This document shows positions 32,410 through 64,000 of a stretch of DNA of 64,000 nucleotides, one piece after another. The position numbers and the translations under genes were made by a program. Position 1 is the stretch's first letter. Every line of letters begins with the position of its first letter. The DNA comes from Eukaryota sp. GEM-RC1. Lineage: Eukaryota. The notes beneath the pieces are model-generated. The model was not told where the DNA came from, ran no database searches, and was given only the letters and a program-made list of their open reading frames with translations. The stretch is from assembly GCA_040285855.1 (NCBI GenBank), contig JAUFOQ010000010.1, positions 1,736,001 to 1,800,000 of the forward strand. The letters run 5' to 3'.

Positions 32410-32439
32410 AGAATCAGTTGTTTTATTAATAAATGAAAC

Positions 32440-35505: not shown

Positions 35506-35907
35506 TTTAATTTTCCGCTGAAAGACGCTGAGAACGCCAAAGTGTCTAAGTACGGACATCAAGTTGCTGCATTGAATTCACGAAGACACAATAATATCGT
35601 CTTTCAGCCTTTTGCAGTTTCATTGTACGGAAATTTCGGTTCTTCTACCAAGGAGTTTTTAAGTTTATTTGAAAATTTGTGTTCAGAATTTGGCAAGAAG
35701 TTTAACAGATCGTACTGGAAGAGTAAATTTGCTTTTTCGATTTTTAGGTCTATGTATAGATATGTTGATTCCATTTTGTCCAAGTTGTTTGGAGGCAACT
35801 ACTTTTCGGAATTAGGTAGTTCGTTTGATAATTTGTTTTAATAGTGTTTATTTATTTGTACTTATCTTATTATGTGTTTTTGTCCGCACATAAATCCGTT
35901 TTTTTTT
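35506..35907 (+). mobile_element. 5'-truncated RLE non-LTR retrotransposon insertion with 11-bp TSD and oligo(T) 3' end
   Basis: TSD atattccactt at 35495-35505 and 35908-35918; KDAENAKVSKY...FQPFAVSLYG...YWKSKFAFSIFR; T9 immediately before the right TSD. Confidence 0.85.
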
Positions 35908-41836: not shown

Positions 41837-41999
41837 TGGAGTGGGAAAATTATGGAGCTGTAAACAACTATACTGTACAGATAGAACAAGGAATTCTCAT
41901 GACTTCACAAATACATTTACAAGGATCGTTTTGTGTACACTTGTATTTTCTCTTAGATACAAGTAGAACAATTTATTACTGTGCGTTTATTCTAAATAT

Positions 42000-43697: not shown

Positions 43698-46600
43698 GTT
43701 TGTGCAGAGAGGAAAATTTATGTCCTAGTCTATTATTACAACAAAGATTCCATTTTTGACTTTCAATCAATACAATAGGGTGGGTTTATTCATTCCGTGA
43801 TGAATTTGTCATTCACGAGGATTAATGTTTTACTATAACTAACTAATACAGGATTAATAAAGGAACCAGTGAAGTAGAAATTGAAGGAGTAGTAGTTTTA
43901 ACAGAAATAGCAAGAGCCTCGTTAACTGTTTCAGTTAGTCTGTTGCTGGGTTGAGTACAAACAAAGGATGGCCCAGAACAATGAGCCTTAACTTTATTAA
44001 TTATCTTGTGACTGGTTCTTTTCATGATGAGAACTACAGATTTACTTGAAGATACTAAAACAATTTTTTAGTAACGAAAAGTTTAAATCAAAAACATTCT
44101 GTATGAAGAGTTTCGACAACGTCGTTGTCTATATTCAACGTTCCAATGGCAAGTTTTTGATTCATGTGAAAATCTGGATCACCATATTGGAGAGCAAATC
44201 TGTGGACCAAGTTTTGTTCACTTCGTTCTTTTCTTGAATACTGGGTAAGGCGTCTACGTCTAAAAATTTCTCTTCATAGAAACAAGCATTGAAAGTTTTT
44301 GGAACTGAATCATTTGTAATTAAAACTTTTTGTAACTCAAATACAACTGCACTTGTTGATAAACAGTAGATTTTCAACCTCCACTGCCGTAGCTTTGATG
44401 ATACAGCCTCCCTATCCTTATCTAACTCAACTCGAGACTGACTCCATTGCAGGGTTTCGGGTTCAGTTGAGGTGACAGGTTTGACAGTAGTGAACTAACA
44501 AATTCGGATTCTTCAATAGTTGAGAGTTGTTTTAGCAAAGGAAACATACATTAGAATCTTCCATATCCACGAAACGTGAAACTAAAGATCTTAGTTCATT
44601 TAAATATCGCTCTAGTTTTTTCAAAAAAACTAATTTAGATAAACAAATCGTAAAAAGACAGAAAAGTTGTACGAGAGCAACGAATGAACGACATTCTCCA
44701 CTGTTATTCTCAGAACTCATGACATCATTCCATTGTTTTGAACGTGTGTTTTACAATTTTATACACGTTTTTTCTTTCTTGAAAATCATTATCACATAAA
44801 TCATTGATAAAATCGGAGAGTTTTGTGGCTGGTAGAACTATGTGCTTGGGAAACTGTAAACATAGCGGGCAGGTCGTTTCCATTGAAGGTAATGATCCAA
44901 CAACGCCGTGTAATGACTATGATTGGACGCCAAACATGACAATGAGACTAAGTATTCCATTGCCTGGAAACAGAAAGACATTAAAGAGAGATCTTTTTTT
45001 CATTTGAATGGTAATGGAGTTGATTTCTCCCGCAGTCTTGGATTGAGAAGTCCCAGTATGAAAGGCCTTATTACTTTATGCAAAATTCTGTCTATTAACA
45101 GGACAGTGATTGATCTGGATATCTCCCAACTTAATTAATATTGAAAGTCACATTTTCTGTTTTTCACCAACGAATTTTGTTCCCAAAGAAGCGGGGGTGG
45201 CAGGTTTTGAAGAGGTGATGTATATGACATAAAGACCATTTACATCTGTTGATCTACTCTACTTCTGAATTGTATAGAGGAACGAAGATACTAGTAAACC
45301 TGCCACCCCCGCTTCTTTGGGAACAAAATTCGTTGGTGAAAACAGAAAATGTGACTTTCAATATCAATTAAGTTGGGAGATATCCAGATCAATCACTGTC
45401 CTGTTAATAGACAGAATTTTGCATAAAGTAATAAGGCCTTTCATACTGGGACTTCTCAATCCAAGACTGCGGGAGAAATCAACTCCATTACCATTCAAAT
45501 GAAAAAAAAGATCTCTTTAATGTCTTTCTGTTTCCAGGCAATGGAATACTTAGTCTCATTGTCATGTTTGGCGTCCAATCATAGTCATTACACGGCGTTG
45601 TTAGATCATTACCTTCAATGGAAACGACCTGCCCGCTATGTTTACAGTTTCCCAAGCACATAGTTCTACCAGCCACAAAACTCTCCGATTTTATCAATGA
45701 TTTATGTGATAATGATTTTCAAGAAAGAAAAAACGTGTATAAAATTGTAAAACACACGTTCAAAACAATGGAATGATGTCATGAGTTCTGAGAATAACAG
45801 TGGAGAATGTCGTTCATTCGTTGCTCTCGTACAACTTTTCTGTCTTTTACGATTTGTTTATCTAAATTAGTTTTTGAAAAACTAGAGCGATATTTAAATG
45901 AACTAAGATCTTTAGTTTCACGTTTCGTGGATATGGAAGATTCTAATGTATGTTTCCCTTTGCCAAAACAACTCTCAACCATTGAAGAATCCGAATTTGT
46001 TAGTTCACTACTGTCAAACCTGTCACCTCAACTGAACCCGAAACCCTGCAATGGAGTCAGTCTCGAGTTGAGTTAGATAAGGATAGGGAGGCTGTATCAT
46101 CAAAGCTACGGCAGTGGAGGTTGAAAATCTACTGTTTATCAACAAGTGCAGTTGTATTTGAGTTACAAAAGTTTTAATTACAACTGATTCAGTTCCAAAA
46201 ACTTTCAAGGCTTGTTTCTATGAAGAGAAATTTTTAGACGTAGACGCCTTACCCAGTATTCAAGAAAAGAACGAAGTGAACAAAACTTGGTCCACAGATT
46301 TGCTCTCCAATATGGTGATCCAGATTTTCACATGAATCAAAAACTTGCCATTGAACGTTGAATATAGACAACGACGTTGTCGAAACTCTTCATACAGAAT
46401 GTTTTTGATTTAAACTTTTCGTTACTAAAAAATTGTTTTAGTATCTTCAAGTAAATCTGTAGTTCTCATCATGAAAAGAACCAGTCACAAGATAATTAAT
46501 AAAGTTAAGGCTCATTGTTCTGGGCCATCCTTTGTTTGTACTCAACCCAGCAACAGACTAACTGAAACAGTTAACGAGGCTCTTGCTATTTCTGTTAAAA

Positions 46601-46797
46601 CTACTACTCCTTCAATTTCTACTTCACTGGTTCCTTTATTAATCCTGTATTAGTTAGTTATAGTAAAACATTAATCCTCGTGAATGACAAATTCATCACG
46701 GAATGAATAAACCCACCCTATTGTATTGATTGAAAGTCAAAATGGAATCTTTGTTGTAATAATAGACTAGGACATAAATTTTCCTCTCTGCACAAAC

Positions 46798-48495
46798 ATG
46801 TCAACATCATTCCGTGTCCGCCAACGTTTTCCCAAACAACAGATGCAACTAGACTTCGTAAATGACATTCCTGCGGAAGTTACAGATGTTGAAATTGTCA
46901 TCGTCCAAGACACTGCGGGCGACTTCTTCATTGTCGTAGTGTATAATGGACATATTCAATACCACTTCAATCTCGTTCTTGTAACATCAGACGTTGCACA
47001 AACAAAGTTCCTTTTCAGCTTAACATCATCCTCTAATCTTCGTGCAATCACTCCCCTTGAAGATACACAGTGTATTAGCGACGTGATATCTTTCATCGTA
47101 AAAACCACCCTCTCATCTCATAACCTGATTGTATCCCCTTCTTCTCTTCCAGTTTGACTAAAACAGTTAACGAGGCTCTTGCTATTCCTGTTAAAACTAC
47201 TACTCCTTCAATTTCTACTTCATCTGATTGTTGTTATGTCTATTCAGTTATCCATTTTATTATACGTCACATTGAACGTTTCTTCGAACTCAATGTAAAT
47301 CATTTCATAGAACTAGATTTTGATACTTCTGCTACTCCTCTCTTCAATTGTTTTTATACGAAAGATATTGAAGGTGTTCGTGCGCAAATCGCTGACATTT
47401 ATCCTGTTTTTGCGGCGGGTCAACACGATCCTTTCAATTTCCTTGCCAAACTTTTTAAAAACACTTGACAAGGAATTCCGCACCATCTTGCCATCTTCAT
47501 CAAATGATGAATTACACTCTTTGTCAAAAATTTGAACCACAGTCTGAATCAGAAGAAACTGATACTACAGACTTCCAATATTATGGATATGATTTAGATG
47601 AGAAACCATCACCAAAAAAAGTTCAGACTCAGTTAGATGTCAAATCATCACTTCAGCAAGATTTAGATCAATTGTTGATAACTCAAAAATTAAAGCATTC
47701 TTGTGCTGTTAATGCATTTTGTTTCTGTATTAAAACAACAACAAAATGTTCTTGGTGTGGGACTAATCCGACATCTAAAATTCACTTCGCCTTGGATATT
47801 AACCAGGAAAGTATCCAAAGGCGGTATCCTTCTAGACCAACCGATCTCGAATCATTGTTGCAAGCTCATCTACCTTTTCGAAAAGAAATAATTTGTGCTA
47901 CTTGTCCTGAACAAAAATCAGAAATTACTGAAACTTTTGCTTCTCTTCCAAAAGCTCTTATCATTAGACTGACTGGACATCCTCAACCAGTTACTATTTC
48001 TTCAAATCTATCACTCTATCTATTCCTGTCTTCTGAAGGACAGATGGGTTCAGAATCGATTGAGTTTTCCCCTACCAATGAAATCAACTCACAACTGCCA
48101 CTTAAGGACATTTACACATTGTCTCATTATCCAACATCAGAAGAATTGTCTGTCTTTGACATTTCTAATGAACATGAAAGAAAGTGTGGGAGTCAGCATT
48201 TTGTTAGAGGTAGTGATTGGGAAAGAAGTACCAGTCGAACCTCAACCGCCAAAGTGTCAACCAAGACCAAAAGTAGTGTTGAAGAAAAATACACATACAG
48301 ACTGCTGTCTGCGATCTGTCATTACGATTCCCTTGCTGACGGTCACTGTGTGACATATGCAAAGGAAAAGAAGGTTCTTGGTGGTTACATGATACCAATA
48401 GTGATTGCAAGAAAGGTGTAGACGAACAGACAGTATTAACTGAGATTTCTTTAAATGGTTATGTTTTACTTTATCAACATCATTCTTTACAATAA
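46798..48495 (+). CDS. USP-like (peptidase C19) deubiquitinase, ~565 codons after correcting 1-nt shifts
   Basis: Cys box DCCYVYSVIHFI, GQHDPFNFL, CxxC pairs (CSWC, CATC), LPKALIIRL, His box HY...GHCVTY..W..D, final GYVLLY. Confidence 0.75.
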
Positions 48496-48658
48496 ATATT
48501 TAGAATAAACGCACAGTAATAAATTGTTCTACTTGTATCTAAGAGAAAATACAAGTGTACACAAAACGATCCTTGTAAATGTATTTGTGAAGTCATGAGA
48601 ATTCCTTGTTCTATCTGTACAGTATAGTTGTTTACAGCTCCATAATTTTCCCACTCCA

Positions 48659-51600
48659 ATGTCTTCTATTATACTGCTAACACCCCTCGCCTCGTCCACA
48701 TCCGCCATTGCTTCATCTCATCATCCAAACACTGTTTCCATAGCACGGTCACGGGATATGGATGGTGGGTTGAAGAAATGTGTGGATACGTGCTTCCCTC
48801 CTCGTCCTAAGATGTCGTCTCCTCTTATTCTGTGCTCTATCCTCTCGTCCACATCCGCCATTGCTTCATCTCATCATCCAAACACTGTTTCCATAGCACG
48901 GTCACGGGATATGGATGGTGGGTTGAAGAAATGTGTGGATACGTGCTTCCCTCCTCGTCCTAAGATGTCGTCTCCTCTTATTCTGTGCTCTATCCTCTCG
49001 TCCACATCCGCCATTGCTTCATCACATCACCCAAACACTGTTTCCATAGCACGGTCACGGGATATGGATGGTGGGTTGAAGAAATGTGTGGATACGTGCT
49101 TCCCTCCTCGTCCTAAGATGTCGTCTCCGCTTATTCTGTGCTCTATCCTCTCGTCAACATCATGGAAACGTGATCTCTCTATCGATGGAGACGTTGAACA
49201 GAATCCAGGTCCCCATAATCGTTTACCATCGCCAGAAGTAAAGAGACCCAGAAGAACTTCTGTGTCACCATCGCCTCCTCCATCTCTGCCAGAAACGCTA
49301 CCAGAAGAACTGCCAACAGAAGAAACTCTAACAGAAGAAACTCTAACAGAAGAAACTCTAACAGAAGAACCGCCAACAGAAGAAACTCAGCTAAAACAAA
49401 AGAAACATAATCAAAGAACTAAATACCACATGGGCATATTGCATCGTTACTGCCGTATTCCACATGAAACTTTTGCCCATCCAGTGCTAAGATCTGGAAG
49501 AACACCTGGTTTCCAAGTTTGTTCATGTATGAATCATGTTTTTATAGATGAATCCGAAAACTTAACTGATCTCGCTCCAGATGTCATTCCCAATCCAGAC
49601 AATGAATCACGACGCTCGTTCCTGGCCCAAATTATGCAAGAGTGTTGTAAACCTGGTGACACGCCAAGTAATTGGAGAATTGAAAATTACATCATGGCCA
49701 AACACTATGAATCGGAGTTGATTGAATGTCAACAAGATGCTAATCATTACTTGCTCAGTTATGATGGAGCGTTGGAATCCCTCCATAAATATTGGTGTCA
49801 ATTGTGTGACCCTAATCGAGAATCTACTGTGAGTTTACCGATTATGCCTCTTGGATTCAAATATGAGATGCCTCCCCATTGTCCTCAAAAACAACCTTCT
49901 TTTCGTGAATCGTTTTGCCTTTTTATTGCTCCATGTCTCTTCTGCCTTCTTCCTGGTCACAGTTATAATGATTGTCCCTTCCAAACTTTTAGACTTAGTG
50001 ATGTTTCATTAAGTATCACATCCTTGTATCAAAATATCAACCCTAAAGTTTTGGTACGTCCTGAGGTTATGCTGGACATTTTATTAACAATGCTCCATCT
50101 GCAATTTGTTGTGGATGAGAAGAAACTCAACCTTCAAGTGTATGATCGTACGAATAATCATTTTACTTTGGAAATGTTCAAAGAAAACCAAAAAGTGATT
50201 GAAAAGTTCGCAAAGTCAAAAGCTGGTTATAAACTCAAAATGTTAATCTTTGATATTGCTCATGTTATTGAATTAATTGAAAAAGAAGCCCCCAAAAAAC
50301 CTGATGTTGATGTCAAAGATTCTGATTTTGAACATACTGACGATCCTACAGACGATCCTTTAAATGATGACGAATTTGATAATCTATATAATCAAACTTC
50401 TCTTAGTATTTTGTGGGATGATTTTAATAATATCAGAGATTCGTCATACACTTCTCAATTACTTTCAAGATTTTTTAACTTTTGTCATTTTCTCGAGCAC
50501 TATACTTTTGTGGATACAGATGAAGAAAGCCGCATTGTCGAAATTAAAGACCCTGAAACTAAACAAGTTGTAGAACGGAAAGAAGTTTACCGACATCAGT
50601 TTACTGTATATCAAGATTTTTTCGAAAACAAAATTGAAACTATGAGTATGCTCATGTTCCAACTGTCATTTTGTGCCCATTACCATTCAAATGAAAAAAA
50701 AGATCTCTCTTTAATGTCTTTCTGTTTACAGGCAATGGAATACTTAGTCTCATTGTCATGTTTGGCGCCCAATCATAGTTATTACAAGATGTTGTTAGAT
50801 CATTACCTTCAATGGAAACGACCTGCCCGCTATGTTTACAGTTTCCCAAGCACTGCAACTGTGGCTTCACCAGAGGAACCAACGTCGGAATTTACATCAA
50901 TTGATTTTCCTAAAGTATGCTCTAAATTAGCACATTTGAAATCTTATGTCCGCGAAAGTGATTTACTAACACAAATTCTTGAAATTTTGACACTAAATGA
51001 ACAGTGGAATCATACTGTTGACAGTAATGACGCCTACTTCGACTTGGTGTTTTCTTGCTTTCAGTTGATTTCAAAAGCACGTAACTGCCGTATTGCATTT
51101 GTTAATGAAGGAAAAGACACTTTTTATCAATTGTTTCGTGTTATTGGTCAAAATCATGTCAAAGACAACAATATTATTCCGTTTATTGTTTCTGGTCAAA
51201 CAGGTTCCGGGAAATCTGTCTTAACTGGTGTTGTTGTGGTTATGGTTACTTTGAAACCAATCATTGTGTGTCAACCTAGAGTTCTACCAGCCACAAAACT
51301 CTCCGATTTTATCAATGATTTATGTCATAGTGATTTTCCTCTGTCTGGATACCGAACAGGCAACAAGAATACGAACATTCCAGTACATTCACCAAGATTT
51401 ATCGAAGTTCAAACCGCAGCCTTCACTTCTAAATTTCTGACAAACAATAGCAATCTGTCTCGATTTGCAACTATCATGGTGGATGAAGTTCATGAAAGAA
51501 AATGTGACATTGACATTTTATTAGCACAAATGAGAATAATTTCCCAAACTGATTCAAAATTGAGAGTGGTAATCTGTTCGGCAACTATGGACAAACCTAA

Positions 51601-53684
51601 TCCTTGTTTTAATTACCTTACACAAGGAAATTATTTAGATACCGAACCCTCCTATACTATCCATGCAGCTGGAAGAACCAATCCACTGATTGTCCTTGAT
51701 GTGAATTTTGTTCGTCAAAATGAATTTCATTATAGTCCCTTAATATCAAAACTTGTGATAACTCCGATTTTTGAACCTACACTTCAACAGGTTTTCAACG
51801 ATCATTTTATTGATATTTACACTTATTTTGTCTTCAATGTGAACTCATACTACGACTATTTCACTCAATACAGTAATCCTCTTTCATATAAAAGTATCAA
51901 TTTCAAAGCGTTAGCCCGACTATGTCTCTGTTATTACTCCCTGTCTCAGAAACTTTTCCTGTTTGAACCAGAATGTACAGGATTTACTTTGCTCGTGTTT
52001 CTTCCTGGAAGTCCAGAAATTACAACTCTCAGTAATACTATTGAGAATGAGTTTGAGAGTCAGAAAAAAAGTCGATCTGGTGGTCTATACATCCCAGCTT
52101 CTTCTGAGAAGCCAGGTGTGTATCCGTTGTATTCAAGTCTGGATTCAGTCCAACAAGATGCAGCTGTGGCTAAACCAGCGAAAAAACAATTTAAAATTGT
52201 CATTGCTACCAATATAGCAGAATCTTCCTTGACTATTGATGGGGTCCAATTTGTCATTGACTGTGGTTTGTCAAAGCAAACTGATGCAGATGACCTTCTC
52301 GACACTCATCATTGCTCCATTGCTTCTTTGGACCAGCGCTCTGGTCGTGCTGGAAGAAATTCTCCTGGACTTTCGTTACGTCTTGTGCAGACAAACTTAT
52401 ATCCGGATGGAACTTTGAGATTGCATTATGATAAACCAGAAATTCTAACTTGTTCGTTGATTGAGCCATTGTTAACAATCAAACAGATCGCTGAAAATCC
52501 TCAATTTTTAATCAGTAATCTTCCAAATCCCCCTGAATTTTTTTATCAGTCAACTGCCTGATGTTTCTTCTAGTGACAACATCATATCTTCGGTTGATGT
52601 TCTTTTCCGCACTAATGTTCTTTCAAGAAACCAACTAAATTCTCCCCTTACTTATCTCGGAAAGATTTGCACCAATGCCAATATTTCATTCTACAACTTC
52701 AAGTTTTTATTTTTCTGTTTAACAAACAATTACCTGTGTCCTGGATTAATTCTTCTTGCGGGTATCAATTCTATGTCGTTCATTCGTTGCTCTCGAACAA
52801 CTTTTATGTCATTTTACGATTTGTATACCTTTTCACAATCGATTCCTTTACTCAAACAACTCTCTACTATTGAAGAATCTAAAGTTGTACGTTCAGACAT
52901 GTTTTTCAAATTATCCTTGGTTCATTACATTTTATGTGGCGAATTTATTAAAAATCTGGATATTGTCCCAACACGTAATCAAACCCTTCATGATCAAGCC
53001 CTTAAGAATTTATCTAAATTAGTTTTTCTGAAAAAACTAGAGCGATATTTAAATGAATTAAGATCTTTAATTTCACGTTTCGTGGATATGGAAGATTCTA
53101 ATGCTCATCTCAAAAATCAATTAAATGTATTGGAAGGCATTGCTCTAAAGCTTGTCAATTTCATATCAAGTCCTTCTGAAGTTACACTCAATAAGTTTCA
53201 AAATGAATCAACAATCTTCTCTTCTCTTTTTGAACCTCCAAATTCAACGACGTCTCTCTTTCAAGCCATTGTGGCTTCTTATCCCAATAAGTCATTCCAT
53301 TCAACTGTAGTAGACAATTCATTCTCAGTTAGGTTGAAGTTGGAAGGTTATGTCAATGGAGAAAAATTTAACAACTTTATAAAGAAATTGTTTGATGAAC
53401 AAAATATTGTCAAATCTTCCAAATCTCTAAAAGTTAATGACAGTGGTGATGACAGTACTCGTTCAGAGACATTATGTTCAAAAGTTAAAATTACTTCAGA
53501 TCTAGCTCCAGGTGAAACCCAAAGCACTGTTGTTATGTTGCATTCAGAGAATACAACTGAAATTGAAAATCTACTGTTTGTCAACAAGTGCCGTGGAACT
53601 CTTGATTCATTAAAAATTTTTCTCTTACGTTCCATCTTGATTGGCATAGATTCATTATCAATTTACGATTCAATTTATCAATGA
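48659..53684 (+). CDS. 2A-containing polyprotein: repeat leader - 2A - P/E/T-rich linker - CCHC knuckle - DEAH/RHA-family RNA helicase with HA2-like region
   Basis: GQTGSGKS, CQPRVLPA, DEVHER, SAT, LVFLPG, ATNIAESSLTIDGV, QRSGRAGR; a shift in the T run at ~52538-52544 continues into LTYLGK (HA2-like) and ORF 52773..53684; knuckle CLFCLLPGHSYNDC at 49934-49975. Confidence 0.88.
48691..49160 (+). repeat. 3 x 153-bp tandem repeat (51 aa) in the helicase leader, each with a long hairpin
   Basis: Units start 48691, 48844, 48997; ttcatctcatcatcca pairs with tggatggtgggttgaa around actgt-ttccatagc-acggt. Confidence 0.95.
49163..49213 (+). other. 2A/StopGo ribosomal skipping peptide WKRDLSIDGDVEQNPG|P (mirror copy at 41282-41332, minus strand)
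   Basis: Exact D(V/I)ExNPGP consensus preceded by RDLxxDG. Confidence 0.88.
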
Positions 53685-56251
53685 CATTGAAAGTTGTCAA
53701 TGCCCGAGAATTTTGGAACATGTACAAGCAATTGTTACAGTGGGGTAATATCGTACATTTGACTATACCAAGAAATTCTATTAAATTAACTTTCGACATT
53801 ATGTCAAGTCCTTGTAGTGATTTGACTCAATACACTCGTATTGATAATGAGTGGTCCAAGGAAGTTAAATGTGCCAAATCACTGTTCCCTGTACCTACAG
53901 ATCTAGGTTATCATAATGGTATTTCTGTTGGTGATAAGTTTCCACAATTCTTGTCTCATATTCCTTCTTCATGTCAATACTTGTTCATCGTATGGCTAAT
54001 GAACTTCAATATCAATTTGGTTTCGGAAATGGCAAAGCCATCTATCAAGGTTGGTACACCAATGCATTGTCAAGATTCGAGGGTCAAACAATTAATTGTA
54101 TACAGTAATGAGCTGGATATTCATGGATCTTTTGAGGTAAAACGTGTCTGGAATGTTTACTGGCCTTATCAAGAGTTACCAATCGAATCCACCTTTGGAT
54201 GTATCAATCGATTACGTATTTTGGTTTATTTAACGGAACAAGGTGAGGTTCCCATAACTGTGTTGAAAGCATGGTATGACAACCTTATTATTCTTGATTT
54301 CAACTTACTGAAAAGTAACAGTCCACCAGTTACCGTGGATTATGTGAATGGAAGGAAACATCATTTCCAGTTACTAAATTTCCAAGTCAATGATGAACAG
54401 GACCTGTTGATGTGCTTTGATCCTGCGTGTCCTTTATGTGCATCATCATGTACTACACTTAATGAAGTCGTATATTCTGAAATTACCTTAGCCCAACACA
54501 AGGTTGAAGAACCTATGATCCCCGAAAACGCTGACCTTCCTGAACCCATGATTAGTGAAACTACTGCATTGCCCCAGTCACCAGTAGCTACAAGTACTTT
54601 GGATTTGTCATCTTGGACTAAGTCGTATTGTACTGCCTCTTCTCATACTGCTAAATATTTAGGACAAAATGTTCAAATCTTAAATTTTACACGTGAAGAA
54701 ATGAGAACTTTCTTATCAACAATTGCCATTGGAACGTTGAATATAGACAACGATGTTGTCGAAACTCTTCATACAGAATGTTTTTCTGCTATTACTCCTA
54801 CTCCTACTCCTGTGTTGAATGTTACATTACGATCTGTAGTCTACAACATTGATAAAGAACTCCGAAGGTTCAGTCGCAGTATTGATCAAGATAGACAACA
54901 TTGTTTACCATTTGACAATCAATTGACTATGTTTGCACTTCATCATCAATTACTTTCCAAGGCCATACTAATTGCTTTTGAAGGGCCCAAATTTATGCTT
55001 CAATACCAGCCAAAAACAGACAAACAAAAGACTATTCGACAAGTATTACCGTTGCCGTTGGCCAGAGACAGTTTTGATTCTCAATGTATTGACATGGCTG
55101 CTGCAAAAATTGTTTTGTTGTCGCAACGAAGACTCTGTTGTTGATCATTTTTGTGCAGGAAGATGAAAAAATTGTGTTAATTGTTCAGAATTATCAACAT
55201 TCATGGATTTAAACCTGTCTGAAAATGATCGTGATGAAGAATTCAAAAGTTTGAAGTGCTATGACGATTTCGTTCTAGTTGTCGGCACTTGTACAATCCG
55301 AAAGCTAAATTTGTTTGAAAGGGAGCTGCTTGGTGAACAACATGTATGGGAATTTTGCTCCTGCCACAAAGATGACAGAATTATAGATGCAGTGTATGTT
55401 AAACATTATGACACAATAATGTACATCACGGAATTTGGGTTCTGTATTGGTTTCGGATTGAAACTACCAAAGAAAGAGATTCAATTTATAATTAATTGTT
55501 CATGTGGTGAGTTAACAGGTCAACTGTTAAAAATCGATTTTTACAATGATTTAAATTCTTTCATTGTTTTGAAAAGGATGGAACACTGTTAATGCTTTCA
55601 GCATTATCTGTGATGGGTATTTCTGGTGTACCATTAGAAGTTCATGATGTTCGTTATTGTGATTCAAAAATATTTACGAACAACGAAGTCTTGATCTACA
55701 TGCTTTAACTGTTCAATCGACTCAACACGTTCAACAAGTTGAGATTCCTGTTGTTGAAGAAAGTGCTCATGCCATCGACATTGATACGACAAAAGACTTC
55801 AGTTTCTTTCATCTAAATGGAATTTTGATGAAAAAATCAACAATGTGAAGCATTTGTTGACTATATTTGAGTTACAAAAGTTGTAATTACAACTGATTCA
55901 GTTGACAAAGTAAGGAAACTTTCAAGGCTTCGTCCTGAGATTTCGTTTAAAGTTGTGTCAATAGAGGGTGGAAAACACCGAAAGATTACATCAAGTCTGA
56001 AAACATTCGATGAACAGACTGGTCCTGTTTTATTGATCAGTACTACTCAATTAGCGGTTAACCATTCTGTTCGGGCTGATCTTTGTATAATCTTTGATCT
56101 GCCAAATGATGCCAGACATGTTTACAATTTGTATGAGAATAATCAAAAAATCGTTGTCTTTTACGATTCTATCAGTGATAAGGACAAAATGCAAAATTTA
56201 GAAAAACACTTCTTTAGACCCTCAGGATTGCAAGCACTTCATTTTATATAG
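53681..56251 (+). CDS. Downstream ORF chain (53681..55144, 55203..55592, ~55880..56251), possibly the C-terminal part of the helicase polyprotein; ends in a degenerate DEAD-box RecA2-like domain
   Basis: ATGA overlap with the upstream ORF; KVVITTDSVDKVRKL...FKVVSIEGG...VLLISTTQLA...CIIFDLP...DKMQNLEKHF resembles an eIF4A/Dbp5 C-terminal domain lacking motif VI. Confidence 0.5.
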
Positions 56252-56717
56252 TCTTTCAATAATTCATTGATGTTTTTTTATTATGTAGAACAATATACTT
56301 TATAACTATTTTTCTTTATTTATCAATCAACGAAGAAGTTGATTGATTGGGTTTATCTGGTCTAAATTTATAATTTATACCATGATTTTTCACATAAACT
56401 ATGCTACCACATCTACACTGAATATGTAACAAATTGGTCTGGTTTAATATGTCACATTTTCTGACATACTAAATCTGTAACAAATTTCTGTCAGATTTCA
56501 GGTGGATGAAATTCACGGATTGTTCTGTATGTAATAACTATGTAACAAAACATTGGTATTCAGACTACGTCTGACACAGTTCAAACTGCAAAATTGAACA
56601 TTGTAATATTGTACAATTATTATTGTTTATTCGTTGTGGTATTCTTACCTGTTATACAAAATTATAAATACATCTATATTGTACTATTTATTCTCTATCA
56701 CTATCAATTCATTTTTT

Positions 56718-58234
56718 TTAAAGTCTTTTTGATTCCAAAAGCACTTGCAGTGGTTTTAATTCTTCGTTTTCCTGTTTTTTCCCTAAAACGTCATTTTCGT
56801 CTTTTGTCTTTGACGATTTGTTTTCAAATTTTGTTGTTGAAACATCAATTACATTTTGTTCTGTCATCAAATCAGGTTGTACACTCTGAAGTAGATCATA
56901 CATAACAAGACATAGATTTTTTCTTGATCTGTTAGTGTATAATTTTGTCTGATTTTGTTCCTGACGTGCATCAACCATTAATCCTTGTAAAATTAAAGTA
57001 ACATTCAAACAGACAATCCATCCACAGATAAGAGACGATGTTGACTGTGCAAAAGGTATATAGTAGTCCACCTTATACTCTGGTAATCTTGCAAACAGAT
57101 TTGTTTCCCCACATCCATAAACAGTTCTAAAAGGATTAACGATTAATTCAGTGGTTAATGAGTAATCCAAAGAATCATAAATATTGAATAATAAAACATT
57201 TGCTTCATTTAGAAACAATTCAATAAGAATCCAATGACCAGATCCTGCATCACCAGGAACATGTTCTTTCACCAAACATAATGGGGCAAGAATTCTTTTC
57301 CTGATTTTAGTGTATCGACAATAGCCTTACCAGAATGTAAGGCATAGCATATTGGATCACCTACCAACTGTTGAGTTTCTTGAGATTGCAGGAACTTGTA
57401 CCTACTTGATTTAAATTTTTGGAATGCAAGCATCACAATGAAATCAAGTTCAGAACTCAACAAGAGTTGTGTTTTACCTTCTCTATCATCCTTTGTCAAC
57501 ATTTTTTCAATATCACAAAATCCAAATTTTAATTTTGAATTTATGTAAAACTGATCACTGATTAAATCTACAGAAAGAAACAACGGGTTACGTTGTTTTT
57601 TGCGTTTCATAGGTTTAGATAAATTAGCATTATCAATGACCGGAACAGGAACTATTTCAGATGGTTCAGAGAAAATAGAATGAATATGATTGATTGCGAA
57701 GTTATCAATACGACGTTTTGGTGAAGGAAAAACGACTTGAGATGGAGTATCGTCAATGCGAGTATTGTCACAATCATGGAAAAGATTAGGAGATTGAGGC
57801 TGAGGAGGAGGAGGAGAAAGAGCAATTGTAACTCGTTTAACGTCTTTGAGTAGATCCTTGAGATGATTTAGAGTTGAAGTTGTTGAAGGAAGTGGAAGAG
57901 ATATGTCACGCTTCTCATAAGAACCATCAAAAGGAAAGAGATGAACAGTTTCTAGATCAACATCTAGCACAATGGCAACGGCTCATTTGTAGTTGAGGCA
58001 AAAATCCATGGTACCCTTTTTAAGATCATCTGGTAAGTCAGATGTTGACACTTCCGTTATGTGGATGGATTTAGTTCTCCATGAATTGTATGTTCCATAA
58101 GGAAGAAGAACAAGTGACAAGTTAACTGCATGCTTATCAGCAAGCTTTACAACAAGTTTCATATATGTTTTGATGGTACGGGAACGACTTTCTTGTTCAG
58201 AAGTATTTCTGAGTTTGAAGATTGAGTAGGACAT
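56718..58234 (-). CDS. Ulp1-like (peptidase C48) SUMO/ubiquitin-like protease, frameshifted
   Basis: ORFs 57983..58234, 57269..57970, 56718..57275; catalytic order GHWILI...IYDSL...AQ(STSSL)ICGWIVC. Confidence 0.75.
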
Positions 58235-58348
58235 GGGAAATTCTGATATAGACTTTATTACAGATTTCGTTTTTTAACACGTGAATTCACACACACATGT
58301 CCATTACAGTCTGTGTGGGATTTCATTTTCCTTCCTCCTACAGTATAA

Positions 58349-61300
58349 ATGTCGTTTGTTCTGCATCCAAACAGATGTTGTCCGCCATCCTGTCCTTATC
58401 TGACTCAACTTGTGACTGTTTCCATTGCACGGTTTCGGGCTCAGTTGAGTTTAGATAAGGACAGTTCTTTCCCCTCCACTGCCTCCACTGCTGTTGCTTC
58501 TCCCTCTACTGCCGTTGCTTTCCCCACTGCCGTTGCTTCGATAATGCCGCCATCCTGTCCTTATCTGACTCAACTTGTGACTGTTTCCATTGCACGGTTT
58601 CGGGCTCAGTTGAGTTTAGATAAGGACAGTTCTTTCCCTCCACTGCCTCCACTGCTGTTGCTTCTCCCTCTACTGCCGTTGCTGTAATGACTGCCGTTGC
58701 TTCGATAATGCCGCCATCCTGTCCTTATCTGACTCAACTTGTGACTGTTTCCATTGCACGGTTTCGGGCTCAGTTGAGTTTAGATAAGGACAGTTCATTC
58801 TGTGTTTTATCAACACATACATTTGTTGCCATGAAGTACTCGTCTCCCCTGTTTATCCCTTCCCATCCTCCGTTCCCAAAAGACCTCACCGCTGATGGTG
58901 ATATTGAATCCAATCCAGGACCCGTAACTCAAGAAGCCATAAACTCAGTTTATCCTCATCAATGGGTTGATGACGAAGCGATAGTGGAGTACTGTAAAGT
59001 GATATTTCAAGAAGCAGAGTTAGACTTTGAAAGCATGTTTATCCATCCGACCACATTGCTTCAATATATTGTTTCACCAGATGCCCCGCTAGATCAATGG
59101 TTGTTGACGAAACTTGAGAAAAATCAAAGAACAAACTCCAAATATCTCTTTGTTCCCCTTAGTGATACCATGACTAGAAATACTAATTATTCCAGAGAAG
59201 GTGTCACTGGTTATCATTGGGGTTTAGCCATTATAGACTGTTCTGAAAAGGAATGGATCTTCATTGATCCAATGTTAACTAGTGAAGATATGAGTAAGTC
59301 TATGGTAAAATCAGCTGTAGACATATTATCCGAAGTACTTGTGCCATGGGGGTATGATTTCCGTTATGTGCATGTGACTAAAAGTCAGTCTGCTAACGAC
59401 TGTGGAGTTTATGTCATTGCGTATATTCATAAATATGTTGAACTTTTTAAAACACTCATGTATGTTCCGTCTCTGATGTATATGGAGTCTGATTTGGTCC
59501 AAGTGAACAATGAACTTCAAGCAGACATATTTCGTGAAAAAATTCGGGATGTATTGTCTCAACAAAGGACACTTTATCTACAACAACGTCAAACCACAGT
59601 AGCTCCTATTGTACCATCGTTACCCATTCAACCTCCTGCCGGTAAAGAACATCCAACCACTTCAATTCCTCTCACAGGTTCACGTCTTGCTAGCACTAAA
59701 ACATCTACTGGTTTTAGCACTAAAAAAAGTAAGCCCAAAATTTCTGATATTCCATCACCACGAGGTTCACCTTTAATTCAACGAAATAAATTTAGAACTA
59801 CCAGCTCCCTTGTTTCAACTGGTGACACTCCAATACGAAAGACTCACCGCCGTATGTCCACATTGGAATCATCTGAAGTACCACCATCTGAATTGCCTCC
59901 ATCACCATCTGAAGTACCACCATCTGAACTACCACCAAAATCACAGGCCTCCATTATGTCGTATCCATCGCCAATTCAAGAAGAAATCCAAAAAATGGAA
60001 GTAAATCTACACACTGAGCCTATAGAAGAAGAAATACAAATTCAAGACTTTCTTAAATCCCCTCTACTTTGGAACAATCTACCAACTTTTTGTTTAATTC
60101 ATGTTCAAAGTGATTTTGCCAAAAAGAAAGAATTATTGGCAGAAATGTTCAACTTGTTCAAGAAGATGATGATTACATTGAAACTGTTGAAGGTGAAGCT
60201 GAAGATCAATTAGAAGTTAAACGTGATTCTTCTGTTGATCCGATTGTATCAATTTCCATCCAGATCATTGATCACAATGAGTTTAATGAAAAGCATTTAT
60301 TTTCTCATGGTAATTTTGATACTACAAACTTGGATTTGTGTACTTTACATATTTCAGATAGTGAATCCAGTATGCTTAAAAACTTCATTTCCTTCATTAC
60401 TCAACATTGTCCACGATTGTTTGTGAGTTATGACTTTCACTTAGATACATTTCCCTTTCTTGTATCACGTTGTCAAGTCCTCAAAATCAATACAACGTTT
60501 ACTTTTCCAGAATTTAAACCCTACATTCCCTTTTGGTTCAACAAATGGTGTAAGGAAACAACTTTTGGTCCGTTTTTTAGTCTTGATTTGAATGCTGTAC
60601 TGAAGAATTTTTATGTCTTTACTGGTGGCCGTTTTTTGGAAAATGTTGTTCAAATTTTTCTTGAAATGAATAATTTTTCTAAAAATGAAACTGTCAAACG
60701 CTTGGAAGAACTTAATCATGACTCTGATCCTGATGAAGTTCAATTGGTCAATAATGTCCAAAACTTGCATGGCATAATTGACAGTATTAATGTTTTAGTT
60801 CCAGACAATCCCAAAGTGAAGGTCGATAAGATTAAAAAGAAATTTGTAAGAAATTTGGAGAAAGTAAATGAACTTTGGGCCAAGGAATCGACAAGACCGC
60901 TATTGTTGATCAACTCAATTCAACAATTACCTCTGATTGAGTACTTGTTGGCTGACCTATTGGATCCCAAAAAACAAACATTACGTTCAAGGTCACCAAT
61001 GAAAGTGGTTAAGAAACGACTAGACAATGTTGTATCCAAAGCGAAGGTTAAATTTATTGAATCTCGTGTTAGGAGAGCTCATCAAGTACGAGTCCGTGGT
61101 ACTCTCTTTTTGAAACATTTTTTTGTTCATAATTTTCACCATTCTGGTATTTTAGGTTACATTCAGAAGTTACTGCCTGCTACTGTTCCAAATGTAACTG
61201 TTAAGCAAGAAATGAATTCTGATACAGATGAGTCAACTGAAGAAGAAACAGATGTACATTCAGAGTCTATCAATGATACTCCACCTATTAAATTAGAAAA

Positions 61301-63875
61301 TATTGAAGATGCGAGAGATGAACCTGAACCTGACCTTTGGACTAAAATTCAAACTACTAAAATTGAATTGCCAGACTGGAAGAATTTTTTTACGTTGAAA
61401 TCAATGGAACAAGTGTTATCTATGATGACGATTAGGGACGGAAGACTTGTAAACAATCAGAATCATATTAGGACTGTACAAGAATCGTTAACAAACATAA
61501 TTTCTAACACAAATGATGGCTCAACTCAAAATCAGTTTGCTCAACATTTCTTGATGCATTACATTCCTCGTTTAGAACTAGCTGCTGATTCCGTTGGACT
61601 TGATAGGATTGTGTTTCCCAGTAGTCATCGTTTATCTCGTATATTGCATTACATGGCTACTGAAATTATAACAAATTACAAGACTAACATGAGTGAACAC
61701 TTTCACGAATATGTTTTTCAGGTATTAAATTTGGTTACCCTGAAAAAAGATAGACTTAACAAGCTTACTGATAAGAATCAACGACAAGAGTTGTGTACAA
61801 AGCTTAATGAAGTCAGACAGTTGATCATTAATGGGGAAATTTCAAAAATTAATTTTCAAGATGTTGAAGTGTTTCCTGATCCCAATTCTAGACTGAGTTT
61901 ACTATTTTTTAACTATTTGTTTACTTTTTTTGAAGGTAAAATGGAGAAAACAATCTATTATGCTGAAAAAGTAGATCCTTTGAAATTCTTAAGTCATGCA
62001 GTGTATTTGAAACGTCTTGTTGAGGACTCTTGTCCTGGTGTTACTGCCAATAATCCTTTTCCTCTAACAAAATCACTGATTCCTAATCATATCAGATTGG
62101 ATACTACATGGTTTAAAGAAGTTTATGCATCAGAAATGAAAGGTAGCTTTGATGACGTTCGAAAAGATATTTGGCACTCAGTTTTGAAACCAAAGTGTCT
62201 TCCAAAGTCATTGTCTCATGACTTCAAATACAGTTCTATTTCTACAGATGGAGTTAGCTGTAGTTTAATGATGATGCGGAAAGATCTGCTTGATGGGAGA
62301 GGAAATCCTCATAAGAAGGTGAAAGCAGTTGACTACACAGCTACTGAAAGGTACATTGATTCTTTGAGTTCCACAGAAATTCAAAACTTAAATTTGAAAT
62401 CCAAAAGAATTGTTGCTATTGATCCTAATCAGCATGATTTGATGTATTGTGCTTCTTTAAAATCTGAGGAGGAAAAGAAAATCGAAGGTTTCGATACATC
62501 AGCCAATCTCAGAAGAAGAAAGATTTCTCCAAAATCATCAAAGAAAAAAGGAAGCTTGAAAAAATTAAAAAAAGAATTGAAGGATTGGAAAGACGCACCC
62601 ACTATTGACAAACCATCAACTGTCAAGTTGAAAAATCGTGATGATTGGAAAGTATTCAGATACACTGCTGGGGAGCGCAAAGCAGATATGAACAAGTCTC
62701 CATGGAAAAGAAAAAAACAAAGAAGGAAAGAAAAAGAGCTAAGAGAAAGAAGAGGAAGCTGGAGAAGAAAATAAGACGATATAATCTCCACCGTTTGACT
62801 GAATCTGAACGGTTACAACAATACTCTACCCAATTTATTCACATTCCAGATGGCAGACGCATTGACATAAATGGGCAACAAATTTTAGATCAATGGGGCT
62901 CTAACTCGCCAGGTAGTAAATCTTGTGATTTGACTCTGTATTCTGCTTTTGTTCTTGGTAAAGAAATTACCTGTTCTTTACTACGATCACCCACTACTGA
63001 TCAAAGAACTACAGAAGGAATTTACGAAGAAAAGTGGTTTAGGAGGAATCGTCTCACACAATATTCAAGAAAGGAACGAAGTGAGAAAAACATGCTTCAC
63101 AGATTTGCTCTCCAGTTTGGAAACCCAGATGAAGTCGTTGTTGGGTATGGAGACTGGAACGACACTGCTTTTCGTCGAAGAAGAGGTAAAGCATCGACTG
63201 TAAAAGGTGCTTCAATTCGGAAATTACTGAGAAAATTTGGATTTAAAGTGTTCCTAGTTGATGAATTTAAGACCAGCAAATGTTGCTCTGCATGTGTTTC
63301 CAGAAACGACGAAGGTATCTGTTCCAATCCTGAAAGGATAAAAGTCACTGATCCTCATTGGAAGAAGAAGTTACAGAAGGAAGAGAAAAGAATTAAAAAA
63401 GGAAATTATGGAACACAATCTATTAGAAGAAAATGAAAATCGAAATTTTACCGAAGAATGGACAGACCAGTTGCAATTTTCGAAAGACAGATTAAAGAAC
63501 AACAAAGTCTCACCATGGGGCTTAGTTGAATGTGCTAAATGTCATGTCCTCTGGAATAGAGACTTCAATTCTGCTATTAATATTTACAATATTGTAAATG
63601 GAACCATTCAAGGTCAAGGTAGACCTGCCATCCTCGAGAGACCAAAATCTCAAACAACACCTGTCGTGGATGGCGGGAATACAGATCAGATTCCTAAGAA
63701 AAAGACTGTGAGTAAGGGTAAGGGTAAAGCAAAACGTCCTCTAACAAAAGTCAGAGGTCCTAACAAGTGTCGTATATGTTCTCAACCTGGACATAACAAA
63801 ACAACTTGTCCAAATAAGCCTAAGAAAGATGTACCCAAGGACTCACACGTAAACCAGAAAGATCAGGAATCTTGA
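58349..63875 (+). CDS. Polyprotein (~1,840 codons): repeat leader - 2A - Ulp1 (C48) protease - linker - Fanzor1-type RuvC nuclease - CCHC knuckle; four 1-nt shifts
   Basis: Overlapping ORFs 58349..58687, 58687..60213, frame open 60114..62774, 62645..63436, 63408..63875; Ulp1 YHWGLAIID...FIDPM...QSANDCGVYV; Fanzor motifs listed in the next feature. Confidence 0.75.
58382..58796 (+). repeat. 3 x ~165-bp tandem repeat in the Fanzor leader, each with a ~20-bp hairpin stem
   Basis: Units start 58382, 58547, 58711; ctgtccttatctgactcaact pairs with agttgagtttagataaggacag around actgt-ttccattgc-acggt. Confidence 0.95.
58873..58923 (+). other. 2A/StopGo ribosomal skipping peptide FPKDLTADGDIESNPG|P
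   Basis: Exact D(V/I)ExNPGP consensus, in frame immediately before the Ulp1 domain. Confidence 0.88.
60999..63640 (+). CDS. Fz1: Fanzor1 (eukaryotic TnpB homolog) nuclease core within the polyprotein
   Basis: MKVVKKRL...V.RAH....TLFLK; FPLTKSLIPNHIRLDT; ISTDGVSCS; RuvC-I VAIDPN (D at 62421); FRYT; GYGDW; rearranged RuvC-II VDEFKTSKCCSAC (E at 63263); CAKC..WNRDFNSAINI (D at 63561); GRPAILER. Confidence 0.9.
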
Positions 63876-63943
63876 ATCTATGAAGTTAGCTCGTCTTAAA
63901 AGACTTTGCGAATGAGGACATTTATTTGTTCAAACTGTGAGTT

Positions 63944-63979
63944 TTGCTCATGAGTTTGCTTACGAGCTTGCTCATGAGA
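63944..63979. repeat. Three 12-bp tandem units (ttgctcatgagt / ttgcttacgagc / ttgctcatgaga) containing the palindrome ctcatgag, 3' of the Fanzor ORF
   Basis: Read directly from the sequence. Confidence 0.7.
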
Positions 63980-64000
63980 TCATGAAAATGTGAAGGGTTA

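What the first reader, a model, noticed from the sequence alone, without database searches (positions are those of the whole stretch)
45296..64000. Large cargo element of a possibly new type: helicase + USP + two Ulp1 + Fanzor, two 2A polyproteins, no visible transposase
Seen: a compact, apparently intron-poor gene set USP(+), 2A-DEAH helicase(+), Ulp1(-), 2A-Ulp1-Fanzor(+). The two polyproteins share a homologous leader and each carries a C-x2-C-x4-H-x4-C knuckle, and the upstream collage contains pieces of both, so they behave as one unit. Established: Ulp1 proteases and such knuckles occur in MULE-type and other DNA transposons; Fanzor1 rides in several transposon superfamilies; 2A occurs in RNA viruses and some non-LTR elements. 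Inference: a giant selfish element carrying an anti-silencing toolkit (Ubl proteases, RNA helicase) plus an RNA-guided nuclease; its mobilising enzyme may lie beyond 64000.
Basis: partly seen in the sequence, partly recalled or inferred. Interest (0 to 1): 0.85.

Follow-up and report, generated by a model that had tools for sequence, protein, structure and literature searches.

The report
Fanzor polyprotein cassette with swappable cargo
In a single-celled eukaryote, a multicopy repeat joins a virus-like ribosome-skip motif, a SUMO-type protease, a polymerase-type exonuclease domain and a Fanzor RNA-guided nuclease in what is likely one long protein, and here it sits behind three other repeated genes that elsewhere appear to lie apart, so it is likely a mix-and-match mobile family moved by another element's enzyme rather than one fixed giant transposon.

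Summary
The genes are real and all four are dispersed repeats, but they do not look like one fixed unit. Named relatives occur at 42 or more gene tags in Eukaryota sp. GEM-RC1 and, without Ulp1 but with an intact exonuclease, in a second species. USP, the 2A-DEAH helicase and the minus-strand gene are repeats too, yet 0 of 8 other USP copies and 0 of 15 minus-strand copies lie within 10 tags of a listed helicase copy. The shared leader is a tandem RNA hairpin with a conserved loop; no known ribozyme. Position 45296 is the mirror point of a 14.2-kb palindrome. The collage is built from paralogous copies, 10 of 11 pieces sense. No transposase or reverse transcriptase was found; a weak Plavaka-like signal follows the helicase. 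Best reading (0.4): a non-autonomous Fanzor1 family copied via RNA by a borrowed reverse transcriptase that template-jumps. Ends, target duplications and guide RNA could not be seen. I found no paper on this architecture.

The parts
38150..45207 (-). Left arm of a 14.2-kb palindrome: inverted copy of 45296-52346, cut off inside the helicase gene
   Evidence: 99.5% identity, 17 substitutions and 17 indel bases in 7063 columns; blunt join to unrelated DNA at 38150
45208..45295 (+). 88-bp spacer of the palindrome; continues the host LRR-gene remnant of the left arm
   Evidence: LRR likeness of the spacer itself read by eye from the translation
45296..45484 (-). Piece of a host leucine-rich-repeat gene family, antisense to the element genes
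   Evidence: 68-72% match to LRR genes at 6697-6783, 8272-8331, 36274-36361
45485..46626 (+). Collage of 11 assigned pieces (32-175 bp) of helicase, leader, Fanzor and USP genes, with unassigned stretches between
   Evidence: 80-97% identity to the downstream genes, 10 of 11 sense, order not collinear; Fanzor piece 81% identical with conservative amino-acid changes, so from a paralogue
46798..48495 (+). USP-type deubiquitinase gene (module U), split by three frameshifts in this copy
   Evidence: Pfam UCH; 520-624-aa relatives span the breaks; 8 named close copies
48691..49161 (+). Three 153-bp leader units, each a long hairpin with apical loop motif, translated in frame ahead of 2A
   Evidence: TRF; fold z -3.13, 0 of 200 shuffles; other copies carry 2 to 7 units
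48659..53684 (+). 2A, CCHC knuckle, DEAH/RHA helicase polyprotein (module H); one frameshift near 52540 read through by other copies
   Evidence: 12 named copies
53681..55144 (+). Unknown 487-aa ORF after the helicase (its ATG overlaps the upstream TGA as ATGA, or it is a frameshifted continuation); weak Plavaka-like signal, C(2)C motif at 54428
   Evidence: Atlas features 0.92-0.93, one cluster with PF18759 in 19% of members, shared features 138-160 of 256; no Pfam, NCBIfam or PDB hit
55167..56251 (+). Further frameshifted coding pieces ending in a second RecA-like (Helicase_C) domain
   Evidence: Pfam Helicase_C E 1.5e-4, below cut-off; breaks lie at A-runs; link to the helicase gene inferred
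56416..56580 (.). Possible element end: starts CACTG, three copies of a 9-mer; weak
   Evidence: 21 of 500 shuffles give as many copies of some 9-mer; a 10-bp inverted match near 63984 is within chance
56718..58234 (-). Module X: about 505-aa gene, Ulp1-like by motif order only; in-frame stop near 57985 and a frameshift near 57290 in this copy
   Evidence: cluster of 16 named members, some full length; no profile support
58382..58800 (+). Leader of the Fanzor gene: three hairpin units (period 164) with the same loop motif
   Evidence: TRF; fold z -5.29, 0 of 200 shuffles; covariance model finds 11 leader copies in the window, none at U or X
58349..63875 (+). Module F: 2A (58900), Ulp1 (about 58960-59540), low-complexity linker, PolB-type exonuclease with lost catalytic acids (about 60090-60660), Fanzor1 (about 61600-63600), CCHC knuckle (63768); four frameshifts
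   Evidence: P0189 reads through the break near 60130 and the 1473-aa P0045 spans the Fanzor breaks
63876..64000 (+). Expected place of the Fanzor guide RNA and of the right end; cut by the window
   Evidence: fold of 63840-64000 z -1.80, 12 of 200 shuffles as good; no credible Rfam hit

Best explanation
This stretch is a chain of four repeated genes that ends in a multicopy Fanzor1 cassette with no recognisable mobilising enzyme, and the cassette is likely copied through RNA by a reverse transcriptase borrowed from a LINE-type element that jumps between templates and so strings other repeats in front of it. Shown: gene content, copy numbers, hairpin leader, collage, palindrome. Inferred: the leader hairpin is the cis mark (promoter or RNA-processing signal) and is translated as a throw-away peptide that 2A removes, the layout of the trypanosome L1Tc 5' end; the released protein would be Ulp1-exonuclease-Fanzor, with Fanzor cutting empty or rival sites under a guide from the 3' end, and the proteases and helicase as optional cargo that may counter SUMO/ubiquitin- or RNA-based silencing. 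Insertion would be anchored at the Fanzor end, with a variable 5' part; the collage would be the record of jumps onto short RNA pieces of family members and the palindrome a fold-back at the same 5' junction.
For: Cassette is variable at the 5' side and constant at the Fanzor side: leaders of different sequence and repeat number, and zero, one or two Ulp1 domains, precede exonuclease-Fanzor (P0045, P0189, P0047, P0036). Modules mostly lie apart in the named proteome, while cargo-next-to-Fanzor is slightly enriched, 4 pairs against 1.24 expected, p 0.04. Structured leader plus in-frame 2A: (3 of 18 pairs with changes on both sides, three sequences only); the same layout in L1Tc (PMC5814959, passages) and 2A in non-LTR elements (PMC3708506, abstract). 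Collage pieces come from paralogues, 10 of 11 are sense (p 0.006; 10 of 12, p 0.019 by hand, if the antisense LRR piece is counted), are not collinear, and the four joins where assigned pieces abut show 0-3 bases of overlap or filler (by eye), which fits RNA templates better than double-stranded DNA. Precedent for 3'-constant, 5'-variable, TIR-less Fanzor1 families with variable-length target duplications: MCi-2 and CRe-1/2/3 (PMC3627910, parts 3-4 read). An RLE-type retroelement tail may lie at 35500-35840 (motif recalled; Pfam gave no hit).
Against: No reverse transcriptase is in the window and none was linked to the family. No poly(A) tail, target duplication or separate terminus was seen at any module border. 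The leader fits neither an HDV-like nor a hammerhead pattern nor any Rfam family. Module X is antisense to F, and 18.7 kb is long for one retrocopy. The fold-back geometry (spacer continues the left arm, right arm is the longer) is not what self-priming of one cDNA would give. The collage copy of the leader folds no better than chance (z -1.35). Fragment capture and co-orientation also occur in DNA transposons (established for Helitrons; PMC6431247 passages). Tag lists are incomplete samples.
Confidence: 0.4

Rival explanations
1. One large cut-and-paste DNA transposon, possibly of the CMCT/Plavaka kind, whose transposase is the diverged ORF after the helicase or lies beyond 64000; the scattered single genes are internal-deletion derivatives and the collage is captured filler.
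For: Atlas feature match of 53681-55144 to clusters that include Plavaka members (0.92); a C(2)C motif after an Asp, as in CMCT transposases (PMC12730594 passages); CACTG start and short repeats at 56416-56580; Fanzor1 rides in many DNA transposons, CMC included (PMC10530073 passages); unchecked earlier notes describe 20-kb Plavaka elements with helicases; the named genome is 48% repetitive (PMC11316075 section 6).
Against: Atlas score is in the range that shuffled proteins reach 4-10 times in 100 and shares under 170 features; no Pfam hit even at E 10 on sub-regions; no H(3-4)H motif after C(2)C; the residue where the first Asp would fall is Asn in both copies seen (window and P0002; position judged from recalled motifs); no TIR pair within 45296-64000; adjacent genes are almost never kept together elsewhere.
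Confidence: 0.24
2. A non-autonomous Helitron2-type (one-ended rolling-circle) element that starts at the Fanzor end, overruns its 5' end and captures neighbouring genes and fragments.
For: CRe-1/2/3 are Fanzor1-only Helitron2 elements with intact 3' ends, truncated 5' ends and captured 5' sequence (PMC3627910 part 3); co-oriented fragment chains fit; Helitrons carry cysteine proteases (PMC6431247 passages).
Against: The helicase is DEAH/RHA, not a Helitron helicase; no Rep domain; no terminal hairpin or asymmetric inverted repeat was identified; a hairpin-plus-2A leader is not a reported Helitron trait in the papers read.
Confidence: 0.14
3. The exonuclease-Fanzor protein spreads the cassette itself: it cuts DNA under RNA guidance and host repair copies the cassette in, switching among family copies; collage and fold-back palindrome are repair scars.
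For: High copy number without any partner enzyme found; RuvC acids kept; exonuclease catalytic in the second species; chimeric copies such as P0036; collage and fold-back coincide at one junction.
Against: TnpB/Fanzor are not known to transpose alone (PMC3627910 part 4); the exonuclease has lost its acids in all GEM-RC1 subfamilies aligned; DNA template switching should not favour sense pieces.
Confidence: 0.1
4. Remnant of an integrated DNA virus or Polinton-like element.
For: Ubl proteases, SF2 helicases, PolB domains and Fanzors all occur in large DNA viruses (established; PMC3627910 table 1 for Fanzor).
Against: No capsid, packaging ATPase, integrase or polymerase domain; exonuclease is closest to Pol delta (for P0059); three scans of viral contigs found no relative; genes disperse separately.
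Confidence: 0.04
5. Side question: the palindrome, and perhaps the joining of modules, is an assembly artefact of long reads.
For: Arm differences crowd near the centre, 23 of 34 in the first 2.2 kb, p 1.4e-5, mostly missing bases, as seen when nanopore reads cross an inverted duplication (PMC7229812 passages); library fold-back reads would do the same.
Against: That pattern is also what a true genomic inverted duplication gives (same paper); arms are 99.5% alike, far above single-read accuracy, each with private changes; the left arm joins unique host DNA. The U-H-X-F chain itself lies within one arm direction and does not depend on the palindrome.
Confidence: 0.3

Closest known systems
Unclassified and Helitron2-type Fanzor1 elements MCi-2 (Mucor) and CRe-1/2/3 (Chlamydomonas), Bao and Jurka 2013, PMC3627910 (parts 1-4 of 7 read)
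   Same: Fanzor1 at a constant 3' end, variable 5' parts, no TIRs seen, no working transposase of their own, captured 5' sequence.
   Different: Here Fanzor is the end of a likely 1800-aa polyprotein with hairpin leader, 2A, Ulp1 and PolB-type exonuclease; cargo includes whole USP and DEAH helicase genes; ends and target duplications unknown.
Spizellomyces and Parasitella Fanzor1 (PDB 8gkh, 9cf0)
   Same: Best solved-structure matches (E 8e-5 and 2e-4; 2e-8 for the relative P0210); TDG motif, RuvC-II Glu next to the zinc finger, RD motif.
   Different: DPN in place of DPG; long insertions; N-terminal fusions; C-terminal CCHC knuckle; guide RNA not identified.
L1Tc/Ingi non-LTR retrotransposons of trypanosomes (PMC5814959 passages; PMC3708506 abstract)
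   Same: Structured 5' hallmark followed by an in-frame 2A; hallmark shared among different family members.
   Different: No RT or AP endonuclease; the hairpin is tandemly repeated and does not fit the HDV-like fold.
Terminons, giant Penelope-like retroelements (PMC6431247 passages)
   Same: Long chains of co-oriented accessory ORFs including a DEDD 3'-exonuclease; structured RNA motifs.
   Different: No Athena RT, no hammerhead core, no telomeric repeats at this locus; Fanzor instead of GIY-YIG.
CMCT clade (EnSpm, Plavaka) DNA transposons (PMC12730594 passages)
   Same: Weak feature match and a C(2)C motif in the ORF after the helicase; a CACTG start at 56416.
   Different: H(3-4)H motif absent, first Asp doubtful, no profile hit, no TIR pair seen.

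Membership tests
Fanzor1 | RuvC D-E-D with the Glu just before the C4 zinc finger and RD after it | tested here: met
   AIDPN 62415, LVDEFKTSKCCSAC 63254, CAKC 63531, WNRD 63552; definition from PMC3627910 and PMC10711439
Fanzor1 | TDG motif in the WED domain; closest solved structures are Fanzor1 | tested here: met
   STDGVS 62241; 8gkh and 9cf0
Fanzor1 | DPG in RuvC-I (near exclusive) | tested here: not met
   DPN in the window and in relatives from two other named species; the catalytic Asp is kept
Fanzor1 | Guide RNA at the element's 3' end; RNA-guided cutting | not testable with these tools
   window ends 125 bases after the stop; fold z -1.80; no run was listed
2A/StopGo | Core (D/G/C/N)(V/I)ExNPGP with a known upstream hexamer class | tested here: met
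   DLTADG-DIESNPGP and DLSIDG-DVEQNPGP; DLTxDG-like class in PMC12846837 passages
2A/StopGo | Ribosome skipping activity | not testable with these tools
   needs a reporter assay
DEAH/RHA helicase | Motifs I, II (DExH), III, VI and best matches in the family | tested here: met
Ulp1 (C48) protease, module F | Profile match and His-Asp-Gln-Cys | tested here: met
   Pfam above cut-off; residues at 59215, 59260, 59386
Ulp1 (C48) protease, module X | Profile match and His-Asp-Gln-Cys | tested here: inconclusive
   motif order present but no Pfam, PDB or local-profile support; 2.4 bits against shuffles up to 9.5
PolB proofreading exonuclease | Acidic residues in Exo I, II, III | tested here: not met
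   lost in the window's subfamily (IHVQS, YDFHLDTF); kept in P0045 (FDVET, FD, Y..ND); domain match above cut-off
Non-LTR retrotransposon (autonomous) | Reverse transcriptase and endonuclease | tested here: not met
   no RT domain in the ORFs scanned; Fanzor is the only nuclease seen
Non-LTR retrotransposon (non-autonomous) | 3' tail shared with a LINE, variable target duplication, 5' truncation | not testable with these tools
   right end outside the window; no genome held
L1Tc Pr77-type leader | HDV-like ribozyme fold | tested here: not met
   relaxed descriptor found no fit on the hairpin; Rfam none
CMCT/Plavaka transposase | C(2)C after the second Asp | tested here: met
   CPLC at aa 275 of the 53606 ORF
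CMCT/Plavaka transposase | H(3-4)H before the last Glu | tested here: not met
   absent downstream of CPLC within 53606-55144
CMCT/Plavaka transposase | RNase H fold with DDE triad | tested here: inconclusive
   model pLDDT 35 and fold search uninformative; no Pfam hit; Atlas lead only
CMCT/Plavaka transposon | CA..TG termini and 2-5-bp target duplication | not testable with these tools
   right end beyond 64000; no TIR pair inside
Helitron/Helitron2 | RepHel protein | tested here: not met
Helitron/Helitron2 | Terminal hairpins and ATIRs | not testable with these tools
   ends unknown
Terminon/Penelope-like | PLE reverse transcriptase and hammerhead ribozyme | tested here: not met
   no RT; no hammerhead core in the leaders
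Polinton or integrated virus | Protein-primed PolB, integrase, ATPase, capsid | tested here: not met

The most novel reading that the evidence does not exclude
A new class of eukaryotic mobile element that needs no transposase or RT of its own: a 2A-released exonuclease-Fanzor protein cuts DNA under RNA guidance and the cassette is copied in by host repair, while a tandem RNA hairpin plus 2A acts as a portable expression head that lets captured enzymes (SUMO and ubiquitin proteases, a DEAH helicase) be swapped in as cargo; the hairpin would be an undescribed RNA motif.
Probability: 0.1. Interest if true: 0.92.

Novelty: new variant of a known kind. Interest (0 to 1): 0.63.

Why it matters
Fanzor1 is known as a stand-alone protein of about 600 aa. 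Here it is the C-terminal part of a likely 1500-1800-aa 2A polyprotein with a proofreading-type exonuclease domain, in tens of young copies in a metamonad lineage: a natural exonuclease-nuclease fusion of the sort editing tools are built to imitate, and a family large enough to read off guide RNA, target motif and insertion mechanism once the copies are aligned. That makes the open question of how TIR-less, transposase-less Fanzor1 families (MCi-2, CMe-1A) move directly testable. The shared hairpin-2A head is a candidate new RNA motif. Searches for Fanzor with 2A peptide, with exonuclease fusion, with Ulp1 or metamonad and Skoliomonas with transposon gave no paper on it; subscription papers, Repbase and supplementary tables of the 2A and Fanzor surveys were not seen and could list these proteins.

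Tried and rejected
No genome is held for the window, so ends, empty sites and copy alignment could not be done. No sequencing run was listed; this says nothing on expression or on the palindrome. Related loci: none in viral contigs or metagenome contigs. Earlier findings on this genome or look-alikes: none. Structure models of 52512-53681 and 54041-54470 had pLDDT 35; the fold search on the second gave Z at most 2.2 and is no evidence either way. Atlas search with P0045 gave no usable hit. Known ribozymes in the leader: not found (the two descriptor hits at 49171 are outside the hairpin and were taken as chance). TIRs around modules: not found. Single-copy host genes: rejected. Collage copied from the adjacent genes: rejected, since pieces differ by 3-20% with conservative changes. 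One weak collage hit (45838-45879 to 56802-56842, 83%, AT-rich, overlapping two helicase pieces) was dropped before counting orientation. Long helicases from other organisms are ordinary cellular DEAH-type proteins without 2A. Among all stored proteins, including the 150 listed of 239 Fanzor hits, 2A and the exonuclease occur only in this lineage (one exonuclease hit, P0048, was not looked up by name).

Full report
What is there. All are broken by frameshifts. Most breaks sit at homopolymer runs and other copies read through those near 47450, 48365, 52540, 57290 and 60130 (for 47450), so most are probably sequencing errors; the stop in X near 57985 is in frame and may be real. Whether the ORF at 53681 continues H or restarts at an ATGA overlap is open. 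Fanzor has the Fanzor1 marks of PMC10711439 (passages) except DPN for DPG, and its best PDB matches are Fanzor1. The helicase is DEAH/RHA. X has a Ulp1-like motif order but no statistical support.

The start coordinate. 45296 is where the right arm of a palindrome begins: 38150-45207 is its inverted copy, 99.5% identical, cut inside the helicase, with an 88-bp spacer that continues a host LRR-gene remnant. Differences between arms crowd near the centre (23 of 34 in 2.2 of 7.05 kb, p 1.4e-5), as reported for nanopore reads that cross inverted duplications (PMC7229812, passages). This fits a genomic fold-back or a library one; I put 0.7 on genomic.

Host and copy number. The closest proteins (91-97% identity) carry the source name Eukaryota sp. 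GEM-RC1, so the host is likely that organism or a close relative; PMC11316075 (passages and section 6) describes it as the free-living metamonad Skoliomonas sp. GEM-RC, 33.5 Mb, 48% repetitive, 14,268 predicted proteins. Named copies: H 12 tags; U 8 close and 3 divergent; X 16 members, 15 listed; F 25 tags (24 from five clusters with representatives 91-97% identical to the window, plus P0047) and 17 tags of divergent subfamilies. I looked up 10 of the top hits and 7 more, out of 150 listed and 239 found, so F counts are lower bounds. Eukaryota sp. TZLM3-RCL has a cluster of 4 with an intact 1473-aa 2A-exonuclease-Fanzor protein without Ulp1 and with catalytic exonuclease acids; one Fanzor piece comes from a third species. 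GEM-RC1 copies have different leaders and one or two Ulp1 domains, and one is a chimera (P0189, P0047, P0036).

One unit or several? Taking locus tags as gene order (assumption), 0 of 8 U and 0 of 15 X tags are within 10 of an H tag, 0 of 8 U within 15 of X, 0 of 12 H within 15 of a close F tag. Pairs among H, U, X and F within 15 tags number 3 against 2.67 by chance; a one-unit model needs at least 145 copies, but the U search, which covered all clusters of 189-604 aa, found 12 close sequences, 4 of them the window's own. With 20 copies the chance of at most one U-H neighbour is 0.009, with 50 it is 0.39, so the test leans on the U census and on gene calling being fair. Against my reading: X next to F is seen once (004517/004514) and, as the F list is thin, an X-F pair sharing the 114-bp divergent gap may be a regular unit. 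Cargo within 6 tags of any Fanzor gene: 4 against 1.24, p 0.04, in differing arrangements.

The leader. H and F begin with tandem units of 153 and 164 bp, each a long hairpin (z -3.13 and -5.29, 0 of 200 shuffles each) with a shared apical motif found 11 times in the window against 0.02 expected. Outer stems differ in sequence yet pair; 3 of 18 pairs change on both sides among three variants, 36 of 500 shuffles reach that, so covariation is suggestive only. A model finds no copy at U or X. It is not an Rfam family, HDV-like or hammerhead. The units are translated in frame ahead of 2A; both 2A cores fit the motif and upstream class of PMC12846837 (passages). L1Tc has the same plan, a structured 5' hallmark and an in-frame 2A (PMC5814959, passages).

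The collage. 45485-46626 holds 11 assigned pieces of 32-175 bp, 80-97% identical to H, F and U. The Fanzor piece differs at 19% of bases with conservative amino-acid changes, so it came from a paralogue. Ten of 11 are sense (p 0.006), order jumps backwards three times, and abutting joins are nearly blunt. It shows that H, F and U sequences meet in one copying process; it does not show that they are one element.

The mobiliser. None was identified. The only lead is the ORF 53681-55144, whose language-model features resemble unnamed clusters, one with Plavaka in 19% of members (0.92, 145 of 256 features). It has C(2)C but lacks H(3-4)H (criteria from PMC12730594, passages), folds were unusable. 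I give it about 0.3 of being transposase-derived and less of being active.

Mechanism. I commit to a non-autonomous Fanzor1 family, anchored at its 3' end and copied through RNA by a borrowed reverse transcriptase that jumps templates (0.4). Shown: parts, dispersal, 5' variability, hairpin-2A head, sense-biased collage. Inferred: RNA intermediate, the enzyme, 2A skipping, Fanzor activity, any anti-silencing role. Rivals: a large DNA transposon with deletion derivatives (0.24), Helitron2-type one-ended copying (0.14), Fanzor-driven self-copying (0.1), virus remnant (0.04). The nearest described cases are MCi-2 and CRe-1/2/3 (PMC3627910, parts 1-4 of 7 read), 3'-constant Fanzor1 families without their own transposase; PMC10530073 (passages) lists LINE and CMC among Fanzor1 neighbours; Terminons (PMC6431247, passages) are the retroelement precedent for chains with a DEDD exonuclease.

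Novelty. It is a member of Fanzor1 by sequence, in an architecture I did not find in print (term searches in three 2A surveys, show no mention of Fanzor; PMC3708506 abstract only). Supplementary tables of those surveys and Repbase were not seen. Verdict: new variant of a known kind, interest 0.63; the fixed giant element is disfavoured, not excluded.

Noticed in passing
window 9007-10565: Decayed pogo-like transposon: CAGT-start inverted ends, TA flanks, two weak DDE_1 remnants.
   Followed up: partly
window 10811-11494: hAT-like gene-less element with inverted ends, 31-bp subterminal repeats and an 8-bp duplication on both sides.
   Followed up: partly
window 31249-32409 (+): Open 386-aa Tc1/IS630-type transposase ORF (DDE_3 E 2e-22) inserted in an LRR gene; no link to the finding seen.
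   Followed up: partly
window 37187-37871: Short pogo-like element with 20-bp inverted ends and TA flanks, 280 bp left of the palindrome's left end.
   Followed up: no
window 35500-35840 (+): An LRR ORF runs in frame into what looks like the C-terminal endonuclease tail of an RLE-type non-LTR retrotransposon (motif recalled; no Pfam hit): a possible 5'-truncated insertion.
   Followed up: partly
window 11738-28551 (-): Very long host gene (several ORFs of 700-1790 aa, beta-strand-rich repeats, Cys-rich inserts, likely signal peptide and membrane anchor) with no Pfam hit in the two ORFs tested.
   Followed up: no
window 4762-8850, 28773-29330, 30494-36871: Expanded family of LRR genes with an N-terminal Cys-rich (MYND-like, recalled) region, riddled with insertions; a piece of it forms the palindrome centre.
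   Followed up: partly
protein P0230 (divergent USP): Its N-terminus has a twice-repeated peptide resembling the translated leader motif of H and F, so a USP subfamily may carry the same hairpin; DNA not available.
   Followed up: no
window 53681-53684: Stop of one ORF and start of the next overlap as ATGA, the form used for stop-restart translation in some viruses (recalled); could be chance, as a frameshift-prone run lies 70 bases upstream.
   Followed up: partly
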